In this document: piece after piece, positions 1-47,804 of the stretch
Position numbering within the stretch: the first letter of the stretch is position 1
Layout: each line of letters starts with the position of its first letter
NCBI GenBank assembly: GCA_964016885.1
Contig: OZ024753.1
Location: 25,916,001 to 25,980,000, forward strand
Direction of reading: 5' to 3'
Origin: Eledone cirrhosa
Lineage: Eukaryota
DNA length: 64,000 nucleotides
Notes under the pieces: generated by a model
What the model was told of the DNA's origin: nothing
Database searches by the model: none
Seen by the model: only the letters and a program-made list of their open reading frames with translations
Translations under genes and position numbers: made by a program

Positions 1-1005
1 TTAATAAGCACCCTTGTTCGGTACAGTGGATGTGACCCTTCCATACTTGCCCAGCCACCGTGTGTGTGTTTGCGTATTGGTGGGTCTATCCCAACGTGTA
101 TTGTATGGATTTGTACCTTTGTATGCTCATGAGTTGTGATGTAATACATCTATGTAGAGTGTGTACTGCGTTATAAGATGCACAATTGATTAGATTTAAC
201 CTGCCCCTCGCATTCTATCTTATTTTAGTTTATTTAAATTACCTTTGACTCGTGGTGAACCAATGGGCCTGTGCCCATATGGGACGGAGAGTTGGCCAGT
301 CACTGTGAGCTGACCTGTGCCATCTCGCCGTGGGCGGTAGATATGGAGTACATGTATGTGTTACCCTCCTATTCTGCGGCTCACAGTCTACACGCTGACT
401 TTGGGGTGTTTTTGCCCGGTGTATTTTTGGCATAGTTGGTCTTCCATAGATTGACGCTCTGTGTTATTCTCCCAAGAATAATGTTTTGGCCCCGATAGCC
501 TTCCGTATTTATTAACGGTTTGTTTATAATTGAATCTGGTGACTACACGTGGGAATACGCATCTCCTCATAAGGTTGTATTTTGAATATTCTGTATATAT
601 GTGTACGTATACTGTCTCTGCATATACATGTCTGTGTGTATGTGTGTATGTATAAGTATACATATACTGTCTCTGGACTAACCCTAATGTTGAGTATATT
701 CTTGTGGTGCCGGATTGTTGCTCAATGTTATGATTTTGTGGTTATCGGCTTTGGAAGCTATTTGTTATGCACTGTTGTTGAGTTTTCTTATCTTATATTA
801 TATTAAATGGTATGCATAATAACCTGCTTCACCTGACTGTGTTTTACCACCTGCACTTGCCTGCTTCTGCTCACTAATATGCGCCTCAGTTATTTGCCTC
901 TTGATGTTCGTGCTGCGGTATATGAATTTGCCTCAAACCTTCCCAGCATTTGCTCCTGCTTGTGATATGGATACACCTTGTTAACCAGTTAATTCTTGCC
1001 TGAGT

Positions 1006-8811: not shown

Positions 8812-10058
8812 AAAGTTATATTAAAATGTTGGGTTACAACTAGTAAATATTTATAACTGATATAAAAGCACTCAACAAGTATTTGGAGTATATTTACGAT
8901 ATTAAATAAATGGAAACTATATTTATAAAACCATATTTATTTCATTATATATATTTCAGGGATATCATATTAACAATATGTTATGCCTTCTTCAGACAAA
9001 ATACAATATAGACAGTTTTATAGATAAATAGATTTGACATACCGTTCAACATCGACTTGTATTTGAAAAAGTTGATTGGCAGTGAAAAATTGTAAACAGA
9101 AAGAAAGAAAGAAAGAAAGAAGGAAAGAAAGAAAGAAGGAAAGAAAGAAAGAAAACGAAGAAAAAGAAGAAAAAGAAGAAATGCATGCAACAAAATAGAG
9201 AGATGGAAAGATAGATAAAGAGAAGAACTTCATGTAAAGAAACAGAGAGAGAGATATATAGAGAGAGGAGATAGATAGAGATAGATATATATAGAGAAAA
9301 GTAGGTAGTTGAACGACGTATCAATGATACATTTATTTATTTATTTATTTAGCTCTAGTATTAATGTAAGGGAGATATATGTGGTTAGGAAAGAAACCAG
9401 CCGTTATATAGAGAGAAAAATGAAAAGTAACCAGACATAGGCGAGGCAGAGTTTAAAAACCCTATGTTTTAATGTAGAAATATTAGTTCGTATAAAAACC
9501 AGGCACTATAATGTAAATATCAGTATTCCTGAATGAGACACGTATCTATAATGTGTGAAAAGTAATGATCTTATGTCTAGTTTTAAAAATTCATATGTTT
9601 ATATGATAACTACAAACATCGATGTGAATTTACGTGATCAACTCCGCAAACCCCTATTTCACACGGAGAACATTCTCATTGTGCTATAAAAATTTAAGTA
9701 TACATATATGTGTATATATACACACATATATATAGAGTCTATATTAATTTTAACAATACTATTCTTGTCTTTACTCTACATGATTATCTATCAAGCAGAA
9801 ATAGAGAACAGATTTCAATATATTAATAAAAATATCAGAAACAAAAAATAATAATAATAATAAACAAATAAATAGAAAACTAAAAAATATTACATATTAA
9901 AAATGAAAATATTAAAAATATTAAAAAAATATTAAAAAATATTAAAAAATATTAAAAAATATTAAAAAATAATAAAAATAAAAACATAATATGCCACGCA
10001 AATCGACCACAAAGATCAACCCTTCAAAATTAATTGACAATATATTGCCAAGTTCATT
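8812..10058 (-). mobile_element. 3' remnant of a Penelope-like element related to the one at 38341-41622; runs into the assembly gap
   Basis: The reverse complement of ~8893-9035 aligns with 41478-41622 (…atgaaataaatatggttttataaatatagtttccattt…aatatcgta), including the hammerhead. Confidence 0.7.
8939..9002 (-). ncRNA. Type-I hammerhead ribozyme motif
   Basis: Minus strand reads ATTTTGT-CTGAAGA-AGGcATAACATATT gtt AATATGATATcCCT-GAAA-TATATA-TA^ATGAAAT. Confidence 0.8.
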
Positions 10059-10258
10059 NNNNNNNNNNNNNNNNNNNNNNNNNNNNNNNNNNNNNNNNNN
10101 NNNNNNNNNNNNNNNNNNNNNNNNNNNNNNNNNNNNNNNNNNNNNNNNNNNNNNNNNNNNNNNNNNNNNNNNNNNNNNNNNNNNNNNNNNNNNNNNNNNN
10201 NNNNNNNNNNNNNNNNNNNNNNNNNNNNNNNNNNNNNNNNNNNNNNNNNNNNNNNNNN
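10059..10258. other. Assembly gap (200 N)
   Basis: Run of n characters. Confidence 1.
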
Positions 10259-10338
10259 TATATATATAATATATATATAATATATATGATATATATATAT
10301 ATAATAATATATATATATAATATATATATATATATATA

Positions 10339-10420
<82 letters not shown>

Positions 10421-10656
10421 ATAATATATATATATATAATATATATATATAATTTATATATATATATAATATATATATATATATATAATTTATATATATA
10501 TATATGATATATATATATATATATATAATATATATATATGATATATATATATATAATATATATATATGATATATATATATATATAATATATATATATAAT
10601 ATATATATATATATATAATATATATATATAATATATATATGATATATATATATAAT

Positions 10657-10691
<35 letters not shown>

Positions 10692-10702
10692 GATATATAT
10701 AT

Positions 10703-10755
<53 letters not shown>

Positions 10756-10844
10756 TATATGATATATATATATATATATAATATATATATATATAATATA
10801 TATATATGATATATATATATATATATAATATATATATATATAAT

Positions 10845-10876
<32 letters not shown>

Positions 10877-10878
10877 AT

Positions 10879-10909
<31 letters not shown>

Positions 10910-10923
10910 GATATATATATAAT

Positions 10924-10960
<37 letters not shown>

Positions 10961-11192
10961 GATATATATATAAATATATAATATATATATGATATATATA
11001 TAATATATATATATGATATATATAATATATATATGATATATATATATGATATATATATAATATATATAATATATATATAATATATATATGATATATATAT
11101 ATAATATATATATGATATATATAATATATATATGATATATATATATGATATATATAATATATATAATATATATATAATATATATATGATATA

Positions 11193-11223
<31 letters not shown>

Positions 11224-11264
11224 GATATATATGATAATATATATAATATATATATATATATATG

Positions 11265-11318
<54 letters not shown>

Positions 11319-11489
11319 ATATATATAATATATATATATATATGATATATATAATATATATATATATGATATATATAATATATATATATATGATATATAT
11401 AATATATATATATATATATGATATATATAATATATATATATATATAATATATATATATATATGATATATATATAATATATATATATATA

Positions 11490-11527
<38 letters not shown>

Positions 11528-11823
11528 TATATATATGATATATATATAATATATATATATATATGATATATATATATATAATATATATATATGATATATA
11601 TATATATGATATATATATGATATATATATATATGATATATATATATGATATATATATATATGATATATATATATATGATATATATATATATATATGATAT
11701 ATATATATATGATATATATATATATGATATATATATATATATATGATATATATATATATATGATATATATATATATGATATATATATATATAATATATAT
11801 ATGATATATATATATTATATATA

Positions 11824-11861
<38 letters not shown>

Positions 11862-12398
11862 TATATAATATATATATGATATATATATTATATATATAAT
11901 ATATATACATATATATAATATATATAATATATAATATATAATATATATATATATATATATAATATATATAATATATAATATATATATAATATATATATAT
12001 GATATATAATATATATATAATATATATATATATGATATATAATATATATGATATATAATATATATTATATATAATATATATGATATATTATATGATATAT
12101 AATATATATGATATATATGATATATATAATATATATATATATAAATATAATATATATAAAATATATATATATAAATATAATATATATAAAATATATATAT
12201 ATATATAATATATAATATATATAATATATATATAATATATATAATATATATATAATATATATAATATATAATATATATAATATATATATAATATATATAA
12301 TATATATAAATATAATATATATATAATATTATATATGATATATAATGTATATATATATATATATATACATGATATGATATATATATATGATATATATA
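10259..12398. repeat. ~2.1-kb (TA)n microsatellite with TAA/TGA interruptions
   Basis: Directly visible. Its interruptions differ from those of the TATG-type tract at 2434-7044. Confidence 0.97.
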
Positions 12399-12506
12399 CC
12401 GCGATAAATTAACGGAGGCATAGGCCCTCGCTATTCCCTGTAAATAGTGTGCTCAAAGGAGAAGAAATCCTGAACTCTTTAAAATACAATAGTTTGAAAA
12501 GGTAAC

Positions 12507-38340: not shown

Positions 38341-39995
38341 CAAAAGGAACTTCGAAACAGATTTACCAGTCAGATTAATTGCACCATCTAAATCTGACCT
38401 GGGCAGACTTAGCAAAAATATTCTAGACAGAATAATACCACAAATTAAGAATTTATCTTATTTAAAATTATGGAAAGGAACTAGTGAAGTTATCGATTGG
38501 TTTAAAGAAATTAAATATAATTATAATAATAAGTTTATTCAGTTTGATATTGCTAACTATTACTCATCTATCACTCCTTATTTACTGAATAAAGCACTAA
38601 CTTACGCATTTAAACATACAGACTTAACTAGCAATGAAATGCACATTATATTATCGGCACGGAAAACGTTAATAGAATTTAATAACCAACTCTGGACTAG
38701 AGCAGATAGAAATAATAACTTCGATATAACTATGGGATCATCCGATTCCGCCCAGGTAACGGATCTTGTGGGCCTCTTTATAAATAATTCTCTACATAGG
38801 AAAATACCTGAGATAACCGGAGGTTTATATCGTGACGATATGCTTTTACTTATAGAAAATAATAACTGTGAACTAAATAGAAATAGAAAACAAATTATAC
38901 AATTTTTTAATTACCTTAATCTAAAAGTTGAAATAGAGAATAACCATAAAATAGTTAACTTTCTAGATGTAACACTAAATCTTAACACATGTCTTCATTA
39001 TCCATTTCACAAACTAATGAGAACTTAAACTATGTCAATTTTAACTCTAATCGCCCCAGATCCGTTAAAAATACTATAGTGAACTCTGTACAGGAACGAA
39101 TTTCGAGAATTTCAGCTAATAAGAATATATTTGATGAAAAAGCGCATTATTACAACGAAGCATTAGATAGAGCTGGGTATAGAAATAAAATTAAATACAT
39201 TGATAATAATAATAGTATAACAACTAACCATAATCGTAACAATTTTAACTATTGTAACAATTTTAACAACTATAATAGAAAACCTTACATTAATTCCGAA
39301 AGCGGAAAAAGGAATAGAACTAGGAACATATTATGGTTCGCTCCTCCTTTCTCATTAAATATTAAAACCCCTATTGCTAAACTATTTTTTAAAGCTCTTG
39401 ACAAATGCTTCCCTAAAACACATAGGTATTACTCAATTTTTAATAGACATACTATAAAATTAACTTATTCTTCCATCAAAAATTTAGCGCAAAATATTAA
39501 TAGAATTAATAATAGAAATTTAAAACCTAACCAAAATACCAATAATAACCCAAGCAATATCCAATTTGATAAATGTAACTGTAGAAATAAATCTAACTGT
39601 CCGTTAATAACAATTGCTTAGCTAAAAATATAGTATATAATTGTAATGTAAAAACTAATTTAAATTCATTTAACTATGTGTGATCCACTTCCACAGAGTT
39701 TAAATCCCGCTTCAATAATCATAAAAATTCTTTTACAGATCCAAACAAAAAATCTTCAACTTCTCTATCTAGCCTATTATGGGACCTCAAACTAAAGAAC
39801 GTTGAATATTCGTTGATTTGGAATATTATTTCAAAAGCTACTCCTTTTAACTCCTCTTCAGAAAATTGTGATCTTTGTATACAGGAAATATTCTTTATAT
39901 TAAAGACCAAAAATTCCCTGAATTTAAGGAATAATTTATTCAGTTGCTGTAGACATAGATTAAACTCAACGTTTAAATATAAATTTAAAATATAA
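38341..39995 (+). pseudogene. Frameshifted PLE RT + GIY-YIG endonuclease
   Basis: RLIAPSKSDLG, FIQFDIANYYSSI, FDITMGSSDSAQVTDLVGL, GLYRDD, VNFLDV, ILWFAPPFS, IFNRHTIKLTYS, CNCRNKSNCPL, CDLCIQE, CCRH. Confidence 0.92.
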
Positions 39996-41517
39996 TATAT
40001 AAATAATTAATTAATTCTATTAATATATTGATCCTGTCGATAAATCATTAGATTCCTTCATCTTTTTTTGACTGATTATACACTCAAGTAAAAATAACTT
40101 TTGACTGATTATACACTCAAGTAAAAATAACTTTCCTTCCTAAATATAAATAAATATAATAAACTATTCTAGAGAGATATACTGAGGGCTCTTGAAAGGA
40201 GAAAATATTTCTTATATTTTTTATTGTTTGATAGTTTCTCCTATTTTCGAAAGTTTATCCTTTCAAAGTTTCTGTTTATTTCTCTTATGAATATAAAATT
40301 AAGGTAAATATACGTAGAACATTTCTATACTAAATCTATTAAACATACTATTATTTTGAAATTATAACTTGAAATATTCTATAATATTTTAAAGTTATAT
40401 TATTTTGAAAGTTATATTGCTTATAATTATATTTCCAAATCGTAATATAATTCTTTTGTATTTTATGTACTTCAATTATACTTCTCTCTCTATATGTGTG
40501 TATGTATATATATGTGTGTATTTACATACATGTACATATGTTTTATGCGTGTATGTCTATCTGTATGTATATATATATATACGGGATGCGTATCTACCTA
40601 TTTGTGTGGGTACATATATGTATGTATATGTGGGAATTGTGTATGCACATGTGCGTGTATATCCATACAATTCGATTGCACTTATGTATAGTGATTATCC
40701 CAAGATTCCTGACAAATAGACATATAATAACAGCCATAAATACATAACAGGTAATCTTATAAAACTTATATAAAAAATTTGTTTAATAACATAAAGTATG
40801 TATAACATAAAATTTCCTTTAATATCTTAACAATTGTAATATTGATATAACTATATAACAGAATTTTCCTTCTCTGATTTTATAAGATTCATATATCTTA
40901 AATTAAAGAATCCTTTATATTTTGTATGTATATATTATATACGTAGTTAGATATGTATATATATTTTTATAAATGTGTATATATATTTATATGTATGTAT
41001 TTTTGCGTATGTATACGTGTTATATAATATTTAGATCTTTAACAATATAATAATATATAGATTTCTTAATATATAGATCCCAGTTTTTAATATATTGATC
41101 TCAATATTTAACTGATTAACTAAACATCTAATCATATTTAAACAATGGTTAAATTTCTCATATTATATATGTATATTCCATTCATGATTATTGACGTTTC
41201 TAATTTTATTTATTCATTTCATCTCAATTGTTAAGTTAACTCAACAAGATATGACTTAGAGTTTTTCGTTCTCTCTCCTTTTCTCTGTCTCCTCTCTCTC
41301 TCTCTCTATCTTTCTCTCTCTGTTGTTCTGCTCTTTCTCGCTCTTTCATTCTCTATCTTTCTCTGTCTCCGTAACCTAACGGCTTATTTTAAAAATATCC
41401 AATACTAACTTACCTAAAATGTAAAGCTACAACTCCACTATCCGGGAGCTTCCAACAGTAATGGTTGCATTCTTTAAGGGTATGTCAATATTTATTTATA
41501 AAACTGTTCTATATTAT

Positions 41518-41580
41518 ATTTTATCTGATGAAAGCACACCATAATTTAACTTGGTGTCCTTGAAATATGTATAATGAAAT
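41518..41580 (+). ncRNA. Type-I hammerhead ribozyme motif
   Basis: ATTTTAT-CTGATGA-AAGcACACCA taatttaact TGGTGTcCTT-GAAA-TATGTA-TA^ATGAAAT. Confidence 0.85.
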
Positions 41581-41620
41581 AAATATGGTTTTATAAATAT
41601 AGTTTCCATTTATTAATATC

Positions 41621-41684
<64 letters not shown>

Positions 41685-41728
41685 AAGTTAAATAAAAGTC
41701 AAATGATTAAAATTTAGCTTCGTTTATT

Positions 41729-41783
41729 ACTGCTATATATATTTCAGTGACAGCCATCTTTGGCTGTGACCTCTTCAGGCAGT
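41729..41783 (-). ncRNA. Type-I hammerhead ribozyme motif
   Basis: Minus strand reads ACTGC-CTGAAGA-GGtcACAGCCA aaga TGGCTGTcaCT-GAAA-TATATA-TA^GCAGT. Confidence 0.88.
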
Positions 41784-42992
41784 TTGAATTAGTATGGTAT
41801 AGACAAGTACATATGTTGTTTAGGTGTATGATATTGTTAATACTCTGATATGCCCAGTTCCTTGTTGGGTTGTTAATTCACTGGGGAACTGGAGTCATAT
41901 GAATTCAAACAAACGAATTTCAGTGTCACAGGTCCCCTTCTCCTCTCATTGGTCAGTTATTAGAACATTCCTCATTCTAAGTGTTGTTATTGTTGGAGTT
42001 AGCTTAAAAATTGATAAAATGGTAGAAGGGACAAGGTGTTAAAGGATCAAAATAACAAAATAACAAAAAAAGTATCAAACTTCCCATTGTTCAGTTCTGA
42101 GAGCATTCCTCAGTCAGAAGTCTATAGGATTCTTTCTGGGGTGAGGCTCCCTGTAGTGTTTTTGCCTGCTATTGTTCAGTACATTTGACCTCCACCATTA
42201 TTTTGGTACTGTTGTTGTTGTAGTGGTCAGCTCATATCTTGCTGCTGCTAACAATTTAGAAGTATCCAGTTTGTGTTTTTTCTTCATCCCTCCCGCCACC
42301 ATCGTAGTGGTGGTGGTGGGGGCGGGGGTTCTTTCATGTATATGAAGAAATATATGGCAATAAATGAAGAAAACAGAAAATAAATAAATAATATAATAAA
42401 GTAATTAATATAATTTGTGTAATTTGAAAATAAATAAATAAATAGAGAATAAAGAATAAAGAGTAAATGAGAGATTGGTGAAAAAGTAATGAAAAAGTAT
42501 ATGGAGAGGTGAGAAATAATGTAGGATAAAGTGTGTGTGTGTGTGTGTGCTATAACCAATCTCAAGGTCAGAATATGTTGGATAGATTGGTATGAGACAA
42601 GATGTTAAGATGAGATATTCAATGTGTTTGTGTTATAATCTATCTCAACTTAAAATAAATATAAGGTGATACAGTGAAGAGGGCAGAAAACAAAAAAACA
42701 AATTAATAAAGAGAAATCAAGATTTAAGATTGGAACTTGAAAGTCAGAAATCTGGTAAATTAAAAGTGTTTGTGTTATAGATGTTGGCCAAATTATTATG
42801 GCTGTGTCCGATTCTATCTCTAGGCTATCATGGTGTCTGCTCTGCCTGGGTTGTTCCCTGTGGCTTGAGGGGAGTTCACAACCTAGGGTGTTGTTATTGC
42901 CCGTATAGCTTGAGGGAGGTCTGGCCGAGAGGTGTTTTCATGTTCTGTAGAAGTTCCTATAGCTTGAGGGGAGTTCACATCTTCTTGTGTTG

Positions 42993-45679
42993 CTACTGTC
43001 CATATATCTTGAGAAAGGTCCCGGCTCTAAGGTGTCTGCATGTCCCGAAGAAGTCGGTTCTGAGGTTTATCAGGCCGCTTCCACCTCTTAGTATCTCGAG
43101 GGTCTCGTTCAGGCATAGTTTGCATATGCAAGATCCCCCTTTATCGGGTGGTACTTTCCTGATTATGTACCAGGCCAGAGAGTATGGGGTCCTGTCCAGC
43201 TTAAGCTTCCAGATCAGGTCGGAGAGAGCTGTGCTTTTCCTTTTGGCCTCCTTCTTGAATGAATGGCGATGGTTGTACCAGCGGTCCTTAAAGCTCGTTG
43301 ATGTGGCTCCTATGTAGAGGTGTTCCGAGTTGGGGGTTTTAACCCTACAACCGTACACTAGGTTCTTCTTGAGACATTCATTACCAAGGGGGCATGATTC
43401 GGGGTTTCTGCAGTTGCAGAGGGTGGTCGACCTCTGCGTGCCTATATTAGGGTTCTCATTATGTGTTACATGTTGGTCTTCCCCCATGCTCGGTGGGGGA
43501 TCCTTGGGTCTGTTTGTGTTTCTTGGGTCGGCTCTGGGTCCCCCCTTCCCTCCTTTCACATGGTTCTGCTGAGTGTTTGTATTGCCATCTTCTGGTTGTG
43601 TGTGGTTTTTAAGCCTACTTCTGTTGATGCTAGCTATGTGTTGGGCCAAATTTCTCGTGGTGGAATACGAAAGCTTCACAGTGTGTCTGTTGAAGATCCT
43701 GTGGTATCTGTGGTCCCTCGGGAAGCATTTGTCAAGTGCTCCAAAGAATAATCGGGCCAAGCTTTTCTTTAGGGCCGCTGAGTAGGGTGGGTTGTACCAC
43801 GTGATTTGTCGGTGTCTTCTCCTATATGTGTGGGTTGGGGGCTTCGTGATTTGTTGGAGATTTGTTGGGTTGCTGGTGGTTTCCGCACTGTTGCTTCCCT
43901 TTTGGGCTGTATACTTTTTGTTATCTTCGCGGCCCGGATTTGTGGGGTGGTTGTTGTCCGCCCCGGGAGATCCATCGTGGGGTGGTCGCCCGTTTCTCCC
44001 CCCCCCCCCCCCCCACGTGTCCTGCGGTTGGGGTTGTCCGTCCTGGGGTAGTTAGCGTCACGCCTGAGACTGCTACTCATATTGTGCTCCATCTCGTGGT
44101 CAAGCGCACTAGTCCCCACCGCCCGTGTGGTGGTGTCTGGTACATGGTGCCTATCTGATTCTGCTCTACCTGTATTGTTAGGGTTCGCCCTCCTCCCTCT
44201 GGCAACGCGGTTGTGGGTGTCTGTTGGGCTATCCACCTCCCGGCTTTTCGGACTATATGTTATATTTTGTCCATGTGCCGCCTTCTTTAGAGCTGCGTTG
44301 TAATATTCCGCGTGGTTGTTGAATATTTCCTTACTTGCGGACAGGCTGGAGATCCTGTCCGAGACACTCTTCACCACTGCCTTGGTTATGGATCTAGGGT
44401 GGTTTGATTTGGCGTTAACATATACGAGTTTCTCGTTGGGCTTGTGGTAGGGGTAGTATTGCTCGGTGTTCAGGTTTAGGGTGGTGTCTAGGAAGTTAAC
44501 TACCTTCCTATTTGGGTCTATTTCTATGCTGAGCCCCTGGTTCTTAAAGTAATGGCGAATACGCCTCCTCATACCCTCCAACATATTGGTGCTGTGGTCA
44601 TGTACTGTGAATAGAGCATCGTCACGATATAATCCGCCGCCCAGGCAGGGGATTTCATCTTTTATCTGCTTCAGCAGGTAGAGCCCAACCAGGTCCGTTA
44701 CCTGCGCTGAGTCGCTGGAGCCCATCGTGATGTCAAAGTTATTTGGCCAATCACTCCTGGTCCAAAGGTCTCCATCGAAGCAGATTAAGGTCTTTCTTGC
44801 GGCGTGGATGATGCTCACCTCTTCTCGGGTTAGGTCCGTATTGGACATCGCTAAAAATAGGGCCTTATTAAGTACTATGGGTGAGATTGAGGAGTAGTAG
44901 CTTGCGATGTCCAGTTGTATAAAGCTGGTCCTACTTTTCTCATGCAGTATTTTGAACCATTCTATTACTTCTCTCGTGCATGACCATTGCTGTAATTTGG
45001 TTTTCTTCCGAAGCTTGGGCAAAATCCTATCCAGTATTCTTTTACTGACGATCCCTAGGTCAGATCTGGAGGGGCTATTAGTCTGACAGGGAGGTCGGAC
45101 TCAAAGTTTGACTTGTGGTCTTTAAGGGTAATCCGCGGCTCCCTTGGTTGGTATGGGGCCGTCCTGTCCTCTATGCCGATTCTGGATATAATCCTGTAAG
45201 CTGTGGCATTGATCTCATCCAGGGTAAATCCAGGTGTTTTTTTGTAGCACTTCCTCAGTTCCCTGAGGATTAGCTTATTGTACAGTTCAGTGTTCATGTT
45301 GTAGAGGTTATTTGTTTTGTCAGCATGGACAAGTATTCCAGTTCTCCCTTTAAGTACTGTAATCCGGTTTCTCAGGTGTCTGAGGTACTCCTGACTGCTG
45401 GTTGGGTTTCCGGAGAATTTGAGGTTGGATATGATGTTAATCATCTCGTTTTCAAACTCCTCCATTAGTCTGTTGTGGGGGGGGATTCCTCTTTGATCGA
45501 AAAAGGTACTCCATGTTTTCTGTGTTGGTAGTTTTCTGCGTTCCTCTTTCGAAGTGGAACGCCTTCCATCTCATCCTACGGATGAGGGAGTCCGTACTCT
45601 TGATGAGATCACTGGTGTATTCTCGTTTATCAGGTAGGGGGATGTCCTTCAGTGACGCTAAGGTTGCCAGTTTATCCAT
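42993..45679 (-). pseudogene. Frameshifted PLE RT + GIY-YIG endonuclease
   Basis: SLKDIPLP, RRMRWKAFHF, ADKTNNLY, ITLKDHK, LDIASYYSSI, DITMGSSD, GLYRDD, VNFLD, CNCRNPESCPL, LVYG…YIG, RWYNH, CKLCLNE, CRH. Four ORF pieces. Confidence 0.93.
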
Positions 45680-45903
45680 AGTGACTTAGGTCCGCTACTG
45701 TTTGAAGCGCTCAACCCGTGTGGGAGCTAGATAGATTTTGAGTTTATGTTGGTTGTATACCAACACCTCAGTATGCAGGCTGGAGCACTCGACGAAGTGC
45801 GCAGGTTGGTTTGGTTACTCCGGAGTAGTGTAAAATAAAGTTAAATAAAAGTCAAATGATTAAAATTTAGCTTCGTTTATTACTGCTATATATATATATA
45901 TAT

Positions 45904-46458: not shown

Positions 46459-47096
46459 ATTGTCTTCAAATCTTTGATATGAGGGTGAAAATTTAATGAT
46501 GTTCACTCACTAGAGTTTTGTCCCCCATATGAAGATTCAGCAGCGAAAACACGCCAGCTGCTACCGTATTCAGTCAGGGTCATAAAACTATCAAGTCTCT
46601 CTCTCTCTCAATAGCTGTAAAAACGCTGGACAGGTCTAATCTTAGCATCAAATTTGTAGAATTTCGGTCGGTCACAATTAGTGTGAGTGAGTACACACTC
46701 ACACACACCGACGCGAGGTCAGAGAAAAAATATATATACCAACATAGTATGCACCGACATCATCGACCCACAGGCAGTTATAAGAGTATATGTATTGTAA
46801 TGTCTACGCCATTTTCATTATTTATTTATTTATTTATTCTTGTCTCTGTTTGCGCATGCGTTTGTGTGTGTGTTTTCTGTTTGGTGTGTGTTCGTGTCTG
46901 AGTGTGTGTTTTTTTTCTATCGTTGCTCACTACTGTGTGTTTATGTGTGGTTGTTATTGTACCTGTGTATATTTATCTTAGGTCAGTATTTGTGTATGGT
47001 TGTTGTTGTTATTCCATTCATATAAATCTGTAAACTCATATTTATATTTATTTACATTACTTTTATAAATATACACATTTTATGTTTTTATGTATA

Positions 47097-47490
47097 CAAA
47101 CATTACGTCTATATGTCTCCACACATCACTTCTATATGTCTACACACATCACTTCTATATGTCTACACACATCACGTCTATATGTATACACACATCACGT
47201 CTATATGTATACACACATCACGTCTATATGTATACACACATCATGTCTATATGTATACACACATCACTTCTATATGTCTACACACAATAGCTCTATATGT
47301 ATACACACATCACGTCTATATGTATACAAACATCACGTCTATATGTATACAAACATCACGTCTATATGTATACACACCACGTATATATGTCTACACACCA
47401 CGTATATATGTCTACACACAATAGCTCCATATGTATACACACATCAGGTCGATATATCTACACACACCACGTCTCTATATCCACATTACG
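47097..47490. repeat. 23-bp minisatellite (acacacatcacgtctatatgtat)
   Basis: About 17 degenerate tandem copies. Confidence 0.9.
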
Positions 47491-47804
47491 TGTATCTCTG
47501 TACAGACAATATATATTTATTACGCCCTTACGCCTCTGTCATAATATATTTCCACATTTAACTTGAAGCGATATAAAACAGATGTTCAACTTTTAATTCT
47601 CACTTTGTTTTCATTCTCTGCTGCACTACAGGAAAGTAATTCAATAAGTTTGCATAATATCAATTAGTGTGTGATTATAGCACTCTCATATTCACAGATA
47701 CATTCACATATACGTACGCACATATATAGAGAAACACGCACACGTATACACACACACATATACATATATATATATATTTATATATATATATATATATACT
47801 CAGA

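What the first reader, a model, noticed from the sequence alone, without database searches (positions are those of the whole stretch)
41679..45886. 5' end of a full-length PLE coincides with its hammerhead cleavage site
Seen: the 3' hammerhead (minus strand) is predicted to cleave AUA^GCAGU between 41734 and 41733. The 55 nt downstream of the cut (41733-41679) are repeated at the element's 5' end (45886-45832), starting at that same G, next to (TA)n. Inference: the template RNA was produced by ribozyme self-cleavage of a tandem transcript (or was a circle read through slightly more than once). Caveat: stem III (TATATATA) cannot be distinguished from the flanking (TA)n, leaving up to 8 nt of ambiguity.
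Basis: partly seen in the sequence, partly recalled or inferred. Interest (0 to 1): 0.75.

Follow-up and report, generated by a model that had tools for sequence, protein, structure and literature searches.

The report
Penelope ends skip the ribozyme cut
This jumping gene does start at the predicted cut site of its self-cutting RNA motif, but its sister copies in the same genome do not, so the match is likely chance; their ends instead suggest that short copies come from uncut RNA and full-length copies likely from an RNA circle.

Summary
The sequence facts hold: a minimal type I hammerhead, an exact 56-nt repeat starting at the predicted cut G, and 9 nt of (TA)n ambiguity. The element has the motifs of the Hydra clade of Penelope-like elements. 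The inference fails its own test. Of 60 body-containing arms, 2 start within 11 nt upstream of the cut (1.3 expected), 36 run further upstream and 22 start downstream. Genome-wide junction counts show no peak at the cut. The family has fixed 3' ends at about +56 and +156, one per arm in head-to-head twins. Short arms pile up at -167, a likely transcription start (36 of 67 stop there). Long copies (0 of 24) and their partner arms (0 of 27) read through it, and their two terminal repeats match and share private variants. Long copies therefore need a template that is read more than once and has no end at either site. A ribozyme-cut, re-ligated circle is likeliest; strand transfer is the main rival. 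No RNA data were available. Scan notes already reported 'stubs start at the transcript start' in other genomes.

The parts
41678..45886 (-). Penelope-like element with Hydra-clade motifs: one 4153-nt unit plus 56 nt of terminal redundancy, between two (TA)n tracts
   Evidence: about 60 body-containing relatives in G000
45831..45886 (-). 5' copy of the 56-nt repeat (+1..+56); the true 5' end lies anywhere from 45886 to 45895
   Evidence: (D15)
45887..45903 (.). 5' flanking (TA)n; its first 9 nt cannot be told from ribozyme stem III (microhomology)
45731..45830 (-). About 100-nt 'tail' between the two fixed 3' ends of the family (+56 and about +156), inferred reverse-transcription start sites
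   Evidence: of 97 first-pass arms, 49 end at +50..60 and 46 at +145..160
42993..45679 (-). Single ORF (RT, linker, C-terminal GIY-YIG endonuclease), broken here by three indels; intact 892-aa natural copy in L287
41894..41900 (-). Position -167 (41900, the A in TC|ATATGA): dominant 5' end of short arms, likely transcription start
   Evidence: (1205 exact junctions)
41729..41783 (-). Minimal type I hammerhead motif with palindromic stem III; predicted cut 41734/41733 (cleavage untested)
   Evidence: compared with PMC4209133
41678..41733 (-). 3' copy of the 56-nt repeat; ends at the +56 priming site
41622..41677 (.). 3' flanking (TA)n target tract

Best explanation
The window holds an ordinary slightly-more-than-one-unit insertion of a Penelope-like element with Hydra-clade motifs, whose 5' end likely fell on the ribozyme's TATATATA stem by random truncation and pairing with the (TA)n target; the family's ends suggest two kinds of RNA template, an uncut transcript for short copies and likely a ribozyme-cut, re-ligated circle for long ones. 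Steps: (1) SHOWN in DNA: insertions sit in (TA)n or (CT)n, and their 3' ends are fixed at about +56 or +156, one of each per head-to-head twin. INFERRED: both nicked target strands prime reverse transcription inside one RNA at these two sites. (2) SHOWN: short arms end sharply at -167. INFERRED: this is the capped transcription start and the RT runs off an RNA whose hammerhead had not cut. (3) SHOWN: long copies and their partner arms pass both -167 and the cut without a stop or scar, overshoot one unit by up to about 2 kb, and their two repeats match the same haplotype. INFERRED: the same template bases were read twice. (4) INFERRED, untested: a transcript carrying two hammerheads is cut at both, ligated (RtcB-type or by the ribozyme) into a 4153-nt circle, and copied round; the overshoot rebuilds the pseudo-LTR, and copies overshooting past -167 regain a promoter. 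The window copy overshot by only 56-65 nt and lacks that upstream promoter.
For: No excess at the cut: 2 of 60 arms, 1.3 expected. Cut window 137 matches, of which 15 of the first 30 are junctions by script and 68 of the first 100 by eye. Control window -50..-58: 152 matches, 28 of the first 30 junctions. Window just downstream of the cut: 98 matches. Spike at -166..-173: 36 of 67 first-pass arms reaching it stop there vs 0 of 24 second-pass arms, Fisher P=4e-7. Partner arms of second-pass copies 0 of 27 vs 16 of 24 arms in short twins, P=1e-7. +56/+156 pairing in 18 of 20 short twins and 19 of 19 complete copies with an adjacent partner. 5' and 3' repeats of one locus differ by 0.91% inside and 0.90% beyond -167, carry the same haplotype in several lineages, and share 21 of 78 private 3' variants. 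One locus has the same deletion at +6..+8 in both repeats (L350/L351). Cut junction intact in 33 of 36 second-pass arms that cross it. Both arms of one short twin share core-damaging hammerhead changes (L110/L111), so cleavage seems not needed for short copies. No complete copy is a full tandem dimer; the longest run upstream of the cut is 1903 nt. Literature: two internal start sites, ribozyme mutants still insert in vitro, no RNA-seq ends at the cut (PMC11167929); circle template proposed without data (PMC4209133).
Against: No RNA evidence of transcription start, cleavage or a circle. The cap-G sign at -167 is only suggestive: G:A 8:2 vs 11:15 in controls, P=0.065; by-eye 33:16 vs 11:15, P=0.049; G is also common at other junctions (67 of 223). 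Short arms may come from transcripts of solo stubs that lack a second repeat, so their stop at -167 does not by itself exclude efficient strand transfer in long transcripts. Six second-pass ends lie between +14 and -9 (a window chosen after seeing the data), and three loci have both arms starting at +1..+4, so a minor cut-template route is not excluded. Hammerhead core conservation within the family is not significant on its own (0 of 12 core vs 7 of 50 upstream sites polymorphic). The 100-arm sample is the first 100 exact matches on one contig, and exact-match patterns favour young copies. Collapsed tandem arrays in the assembly cannot be excluded.
Confidence: 0.5

Rival explanations
1. One reading: the RT copied a linear RNA whose upstream hammerhead had cut and ran off at the 5'-OH G. 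As a rule for the family this is refuted; it may still hold for this copy as a minor route.
For: The window copy and L283 start within 2-9 nt of the cut. Three loci have both twin arms starting at +1..+4. Six second-pass ends lie between +14 and -9.
Against: 34 of 35 complete copies start elsewhere. No peak against control windows. By eye, near-symmetric twin joins also occur in the control window. The 9-nt TA overlap makes this window an easy place to join to (TA)n.
Confidence: 0.15
2. Strand transfer without a circle: the RT starts at +56/+156 on the uncut transcript and jumps by homology from the 5' repeat to the 3' repeat of the same or a sister RNA, as LTR elements do. The ribozyme would then have another job or none.
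For: Also predicts matching repeats, scarless junctions and overshoot. Ribozyme mutants insert normally in vitro (PMC11167929). Naiad elements form pseudo-LTRs without canonical hammerheads (PMC8557442).
Against: Needs almost every jump at the cap to succeed without a scar (0 of 24 and 0 of 27 stops at -167; context intact in the second-pass copies shown). The equal 5'/3' divergence inside and beyond -167 argues against the version primed in the 3' repeat. It gives no reason why related families in this window keep the catalytic core with different stems.
Confidence: 0.25
3. Long copies come from read-through transcripts of tandem master loci or of copies with long pseudo-LTRs driven by outside promoters.
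For: Established for other PLEs that tandem organisation supplies the promoter (PMC2377424). Tandem arrays may be collapsed in an assembly.
Against: No full dimer among 60 arms. Several haplotypes each have matched repeats with shared private variants, which a linear donor would not keep homogenising. A mechanism to make the tandem is still needed.
Confidence: 0.1

Closest known systems
Hydra-clade Penelope-like elements (Craig et al. 2021, PMC8557442; section 11, passages and supplement parts 2 and 58 read)
   Same: C-terminal GIY-YIG, RWK, DKT, YRDD, CxCX5C linker, CxxC and CxH around the endonuclease E and N, (TA)n targets, 3' hammerhead, partial tandems, inverted 5' copies.
   Different: Longer (4.15-kb unit, 892 aa vs mostly under 3 kb), with low-complexity inserts; tail about 100 nt rather than 30-40; stem III lacks the AC..GT pair listed for Hydra hammerheads and is pure TA.
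PAc (Poseidon of Anolis carolinensis; Frangieh et al. 2024, PMC11167929; parts 1-2 of 4 read)
   Same: Two internal start sites that define the tail, AT-rich targets, both strands primed, uncut RNA as the main substrate.
   Different: That paper reports no strand difference in start site in vitro; here the two arms of one insertion use different sites in 37 of 39 twins. Different clade; the hammerhead here lies far from the start codon.
Minimal hammerheads of metazoan PLEs and the circle hypothesis (Cervera and De la Pena 2014, PMC4209133, part 2 of 4 read; non-LTR retrozymes, PMC7229834, passages read)
   Same: Type I minimal motif with palindromic helix III; circle template proposed to explain tandems; retrozyme monomers are ligated by RtcB in vitro.
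   Different: For autonomous PLEs the circle was a proposal; here junction statistics support a template without ends, still without RNA proof.
Penelope of Drosophila virilis (Schostak et al. 2008, PMC2377424, passages read)
   Same: Promoter and start lie in the pseudo-LTR; variably truncated upstream copy; inverted repeats.
   Different: [quoted passage not shown]

Membership tests
Penelope-like elements (EN+) | Single ORF with RT and GIY-YIG endonuclease | tested here: met
   892-aa ORF in L287. 43 homologues at E<=1e-10; one of four scanned hits Pfam RVT_1. The query itself had no significant Pfam or PDB hit. GIY-YIG read by eye against the published alignment.
Penelope-like elements (EN+) | Partial tandem (pseudo-LTR), inverted 5' copy, optional tail | tested here: met
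Hydra clade | RWK, DKT, CxCX5C linker, CxxC and CxH flanking E and N | tested here: met
   All read in the translation against the text; RT, thumb and linker stretches match the Hydra rows of the supplement by eye.
Hydra clade | (TA)n insertion preference and 3' hammerhead | tested here: met
Hydra clade | Groups with Hydra elements in an RT phylogeny | not tested
   No tree built; the reference proteins were seen only as text in a supplement.
Hydra clade | Generally under 3 kb | tested here: not met
   Unit is 4153 nt; the paper gives this as a tendency, not a definition.
Minimal type I hammerhead | CUGANGA / GAAA / UH core, stems I and II, palindromic stem III | tested here: met
   no Rfam match at gathering score
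Minimal type I hammerhead | Self-cleavage at the predicted site | not testable with these tools
   Needs a bench assay; no RNA run listed.
Retroelements whose 5' end is set by a ribozyme (R2/HDV-like type; recalled, mentioned) | Full-length copies begin at the cleavage site | tested here: not met
   1 of 35 complete copies
Retrozyme-type circular intermediates | Circular monomer RNA joined at the cut | not testable with these tools
   Only indirect DNA evidence.

The most novel reading that the evidence does not exclude
An autonomous Penelope-like element sorts its RNA into two fates. Uncut capped transcripts give thousands of short twin stubs. Hammerhead cleavage and ligation give a 4.15-kb circle, which two RTs primed at +56 and +156 on the two target strands copy for more than one lap, regenerating the pseudo-LTR promoter. 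The junction census would be genomic evidence for rolling-circle reverse transcription in a PLE and would give its hammerhead a function.
Probability: 0.45. Interest if true: 0.75.

Novelty: new member of a known kind. Interest (0 to 1): 0.45.

Why it matters
How Penelope-like elements rebuild their pseudo-LTR, and what their hammerheads do, are stated as open in the papers read. This young, high-copy family gives countable junctions that rule out the simple 'cut defines the 5' end' model and rule out copying of a linear, once-read transcript for long copies. It names exact positions (-167, the cut, +56, +156) and an intact natural ORF, so circle versus strand transfer becomes a direct experiment. 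The single-copy coincidence that was flagged is itself ordinary.

Tried and rejected
Rfam scan: no match at gathering score. Pfam on the window fragments and on L287, and a PDB sequence search: no significant hit. RNA runs: no RNA holder listed, so no reads were laid; this is no evidence either way. The protein atlas gave no result. One search was meant to count (TA)n-joined ends, but only 4 of its first 30 hits are junctions; the rest are stem III slippage or point changes. The first cap-G control was invalid because a subfamily has GG at that place; it was redone with a haplotype panel. A replicate on sister hammerhead families found by chance in the loci was too heterogeneous to map 5' ends; it showed only that 37 of 38 contexts extend at least 34 nt past the cut, the remaining row being the reference itself. 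A rise in truncation after one lap is weak (0.29% vs 0.13% per nt, P=0.036; body about 0.12% per nt) and is not used as main support. The bacterial promoter scan is not relevant to a eukaryote. Paper searches for junction mapping or circle evidence in PLEs and for the cap-G signature returned no paper showing it; the library lacks most subscription journals, and the cap-G idea is recalled, not from a call. The Terminon paper was not held. Supplements of PMC11167929, PMC4209133 and the bioRxiv preprint were not seen and may bear on junction mapping.

Full report
Coordinates. Positions are given relative to the predicted cut: +1 is the G after it (window 41733 and 45886), -1 the A before it. An 'arm' is one stretch of element sequence read from its 3' end upstream. 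'First pass' arms end within one unit; 'second pass' arms contain +160 onward and so lie at the 5' end of a body.

Observation. The minus strand carries a minimal type I hammerhead at 41783-41729 with a palindromic TA stem III and a predicted cut at 41734/41733. The 56 nt after the cut recur exactly at 45886-45831, and 9 further nt upstream also match because the flank is (TA)n. Rfam has no match at gathering score; the motif agrees with the minimal hammerheads described for PLEs (PMC4209133, part 2 of 4). The ORF at 45679-42993 has three indels against L287, a natural copy with an open 892-aa frame. That protein has 43 homologues, one of four scanned hitting RVT_1, and shows the RWK, DKT, CxCX5C, CxxC and CxH motifs given for the Hydra clade (PMC8557442 section 11; supplement alignment). 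No tree was built.

A DNA search with the 5' end scored 40 of 306 candidates and fetched 30; 27 of these 30 extend at least 18 nt upstream of the cut. A probe that crosses +160 gave 57 exact matches. I fetched the 56 outside the window (55 regions) plus 5 loci; two of those 5 lacked the anchor and dropped out, leaving 60 arms with the window. Their 5' ends run from +138 to -1903: 22 downstream of the cut, 2 at -2 and -9, 36 further upstream. At the local loss rate 1.3 are expected in 0..-11 (P=0.38). Among the 35 complete copies only the window copy starts there.

Genome-wide counts agree. The +1..+22 word occurs 5722 times. Sixty lack the A at -1; 26 of the first 30 are point changes and 4 are junctions in 3 loci. 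A pattern that catches arms ending at 0..-11 gave 137 matches: 15 of the first 30 are junctions by script, 68 of the first 100 by eye, with apparent ends spread over the whole window. A control at -50..-58 gave 152, 28 of the first 30 junctions. The window +5..+12 gave 98. The patterns differ slightly in width and stringency, so these are rough, but there is no peak at the cut. The cut is not a preferred 5' end.

What the family shows instead. In the first 100 exact matches on contig C1, 97 are first-pass arms; 49 end at +50..60 and 46 at +145..160, running into (TA)n or (CT)n. This matches the two internal start sites and tail reported for PAc (PMC11167929, parts 1-2 of 4). Head-to-head twins carry one end of each kind in 18 of 20 short twins and 19 of 19 complete copies with an adjacent partner, and twin arms share private changes (L104/105, L110/111; L336/337). 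I infer that both target strands prime on one RNA. The 56-nt repeat in the window is thus fixed by the +56 priming site at its 3' side.

The -167 spike. Of 67 first-pass arms reaching -166, 36 stop at -166..-173, and 1205 junctions sit exactly at the A of TC|ATATGA. A pyrimidine-A start resembles an initiator (recalled). An extra G before it would mark a copied cap (recalled; no paper found), and the data lean that way but weakly: 8:2 G:A vs 11:15 in controls (P=0.065), 33:16 by eye (P=0.049). These arms cross the cut on their way, so their template was uncut. A twin with a damaged core in both arms (L110/111) suggests cleavage is not needed for them. D. virilis Penelope also starts inside its pseudo-LTR (PMC2377424, passages).

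Long copies differ. None of 24 second-pass arms reaching -166 stops at -166..-173 (P=4e-7; 2 of 24 vs 42 of 67 for -166..-190), and none of 27 of their partner arms does (vs 16 of 24, P=1e-7). A linear transcript starting at -167 cannot give a repeat longer than 167 nt upstream of the cut. The 5' and 3' repeats of a locus carry the same haplotype across several lineages, 21 of 78 private 3' variants are shared with the 5' repeat (22 loci), and divergence is the same inside and beyond -167 (27/2955 vs 79/8785). The cut junction is intact in 33 of 36. No full dimer was seen. The same template bases were therefore likely read twice, on a molecule with no end at -167 or at the cut.

Mechanism. A hammerhead-cut, re-ligated monomer circle explains this with one step and gives the conserved ribozyme a role. 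It was proposed by Cervera and De la Pena, and retrozyme monomers are circularised by RtcB in vitro (PMC7229834, passages). Homologous strand transfer from the 5' to the 3' repeat gives nearly the same DNA product and cannot be excluded, the more so as Naiads build pseudo-LTRs without canonical hammerheads and PAc ribozyme mutants insert in vitro. Arkhipova et al. 2013 (PMC3846280, passages) proposed self-priming on an antisense template for head-to-head repeats; the complementary +56/+156 ends here fit two-strand target priming better, though I did not test their model directly. The 2026 preprint on retrozymes (part 1 of 5 and passages) did not address junctions in what I read.

Against my reading. 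There are no RNA data. Six second-pass ends between +14 and -9, and three twins with both arms at +1..+4, leave room for a minor route through a cut template, to which the window copy could belong (about 15-20%). Samples are exact-match based and the first-pass sample comes from one contig.

Earlier scan notes. None for relatives of this stretch. Word search found notes on other genomes that PLE stubs begin at the transcript start and that single ends near the cut prove little; these are unchecked AI notes, found after my counts were made. A search for the circle and twin-arm reading returned none.

Verdict. Observation confirmed, main interpretation not supported, bracketed circle alternative plausible. 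New member of a known clade. Interest 0.45, resting on the family-level junction evidence rather than on the flagged coincidence.

Noticed in passing
window 38342-41621 (+): A second, related PLE on the plus strand: ORF fragments 46-59% identical to the L287 protein at 38342-39974 and a hammerhead motif at 41525; it ends at the same (TA)n, tail to tail with the studied element.
   Followed up: partly
window 8995 (-), 49706 (+), 8069 (+): Further minimal hammerhead motifs of other families; 8995 is 86% identical to the 41525 region, and relatives of the 8995, 41525 and 49706 motifs turn up often in the fetched loci. The 8069 match is weak.
   Followed up: partly
window 42857-43054: Imperfect 99-nt direct repeat spanning the end of the ORF.
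   Followed up: no
window 9942-12452: The 836-aa 'ORF' is only a TA-rich low-complexity tract next to an N gap.
   Followed up: yes
window 46997-47521: Tandem array with a 23-nt period.
   Followed up: no
L036, L037, L041 and others, positions -13, -51, -52: An older subfamily has the canonical G10.1-C11.1 pair and a possible extension of stem I, where the young subfamily has G-U.
   Followed up: partly
L287:5608-8286: Natural copy with an open 892-aa frame, carrying two low-complexity inserts between thumb and endonuclease, as described for some rotifer PLEs.
   Followed up: partly
loci: Arms ending at about +158 often run into (CT)n rather than (TA)n, matching the RNA sequence at that start site; suggests microhomology at priming.
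   Followed up: no
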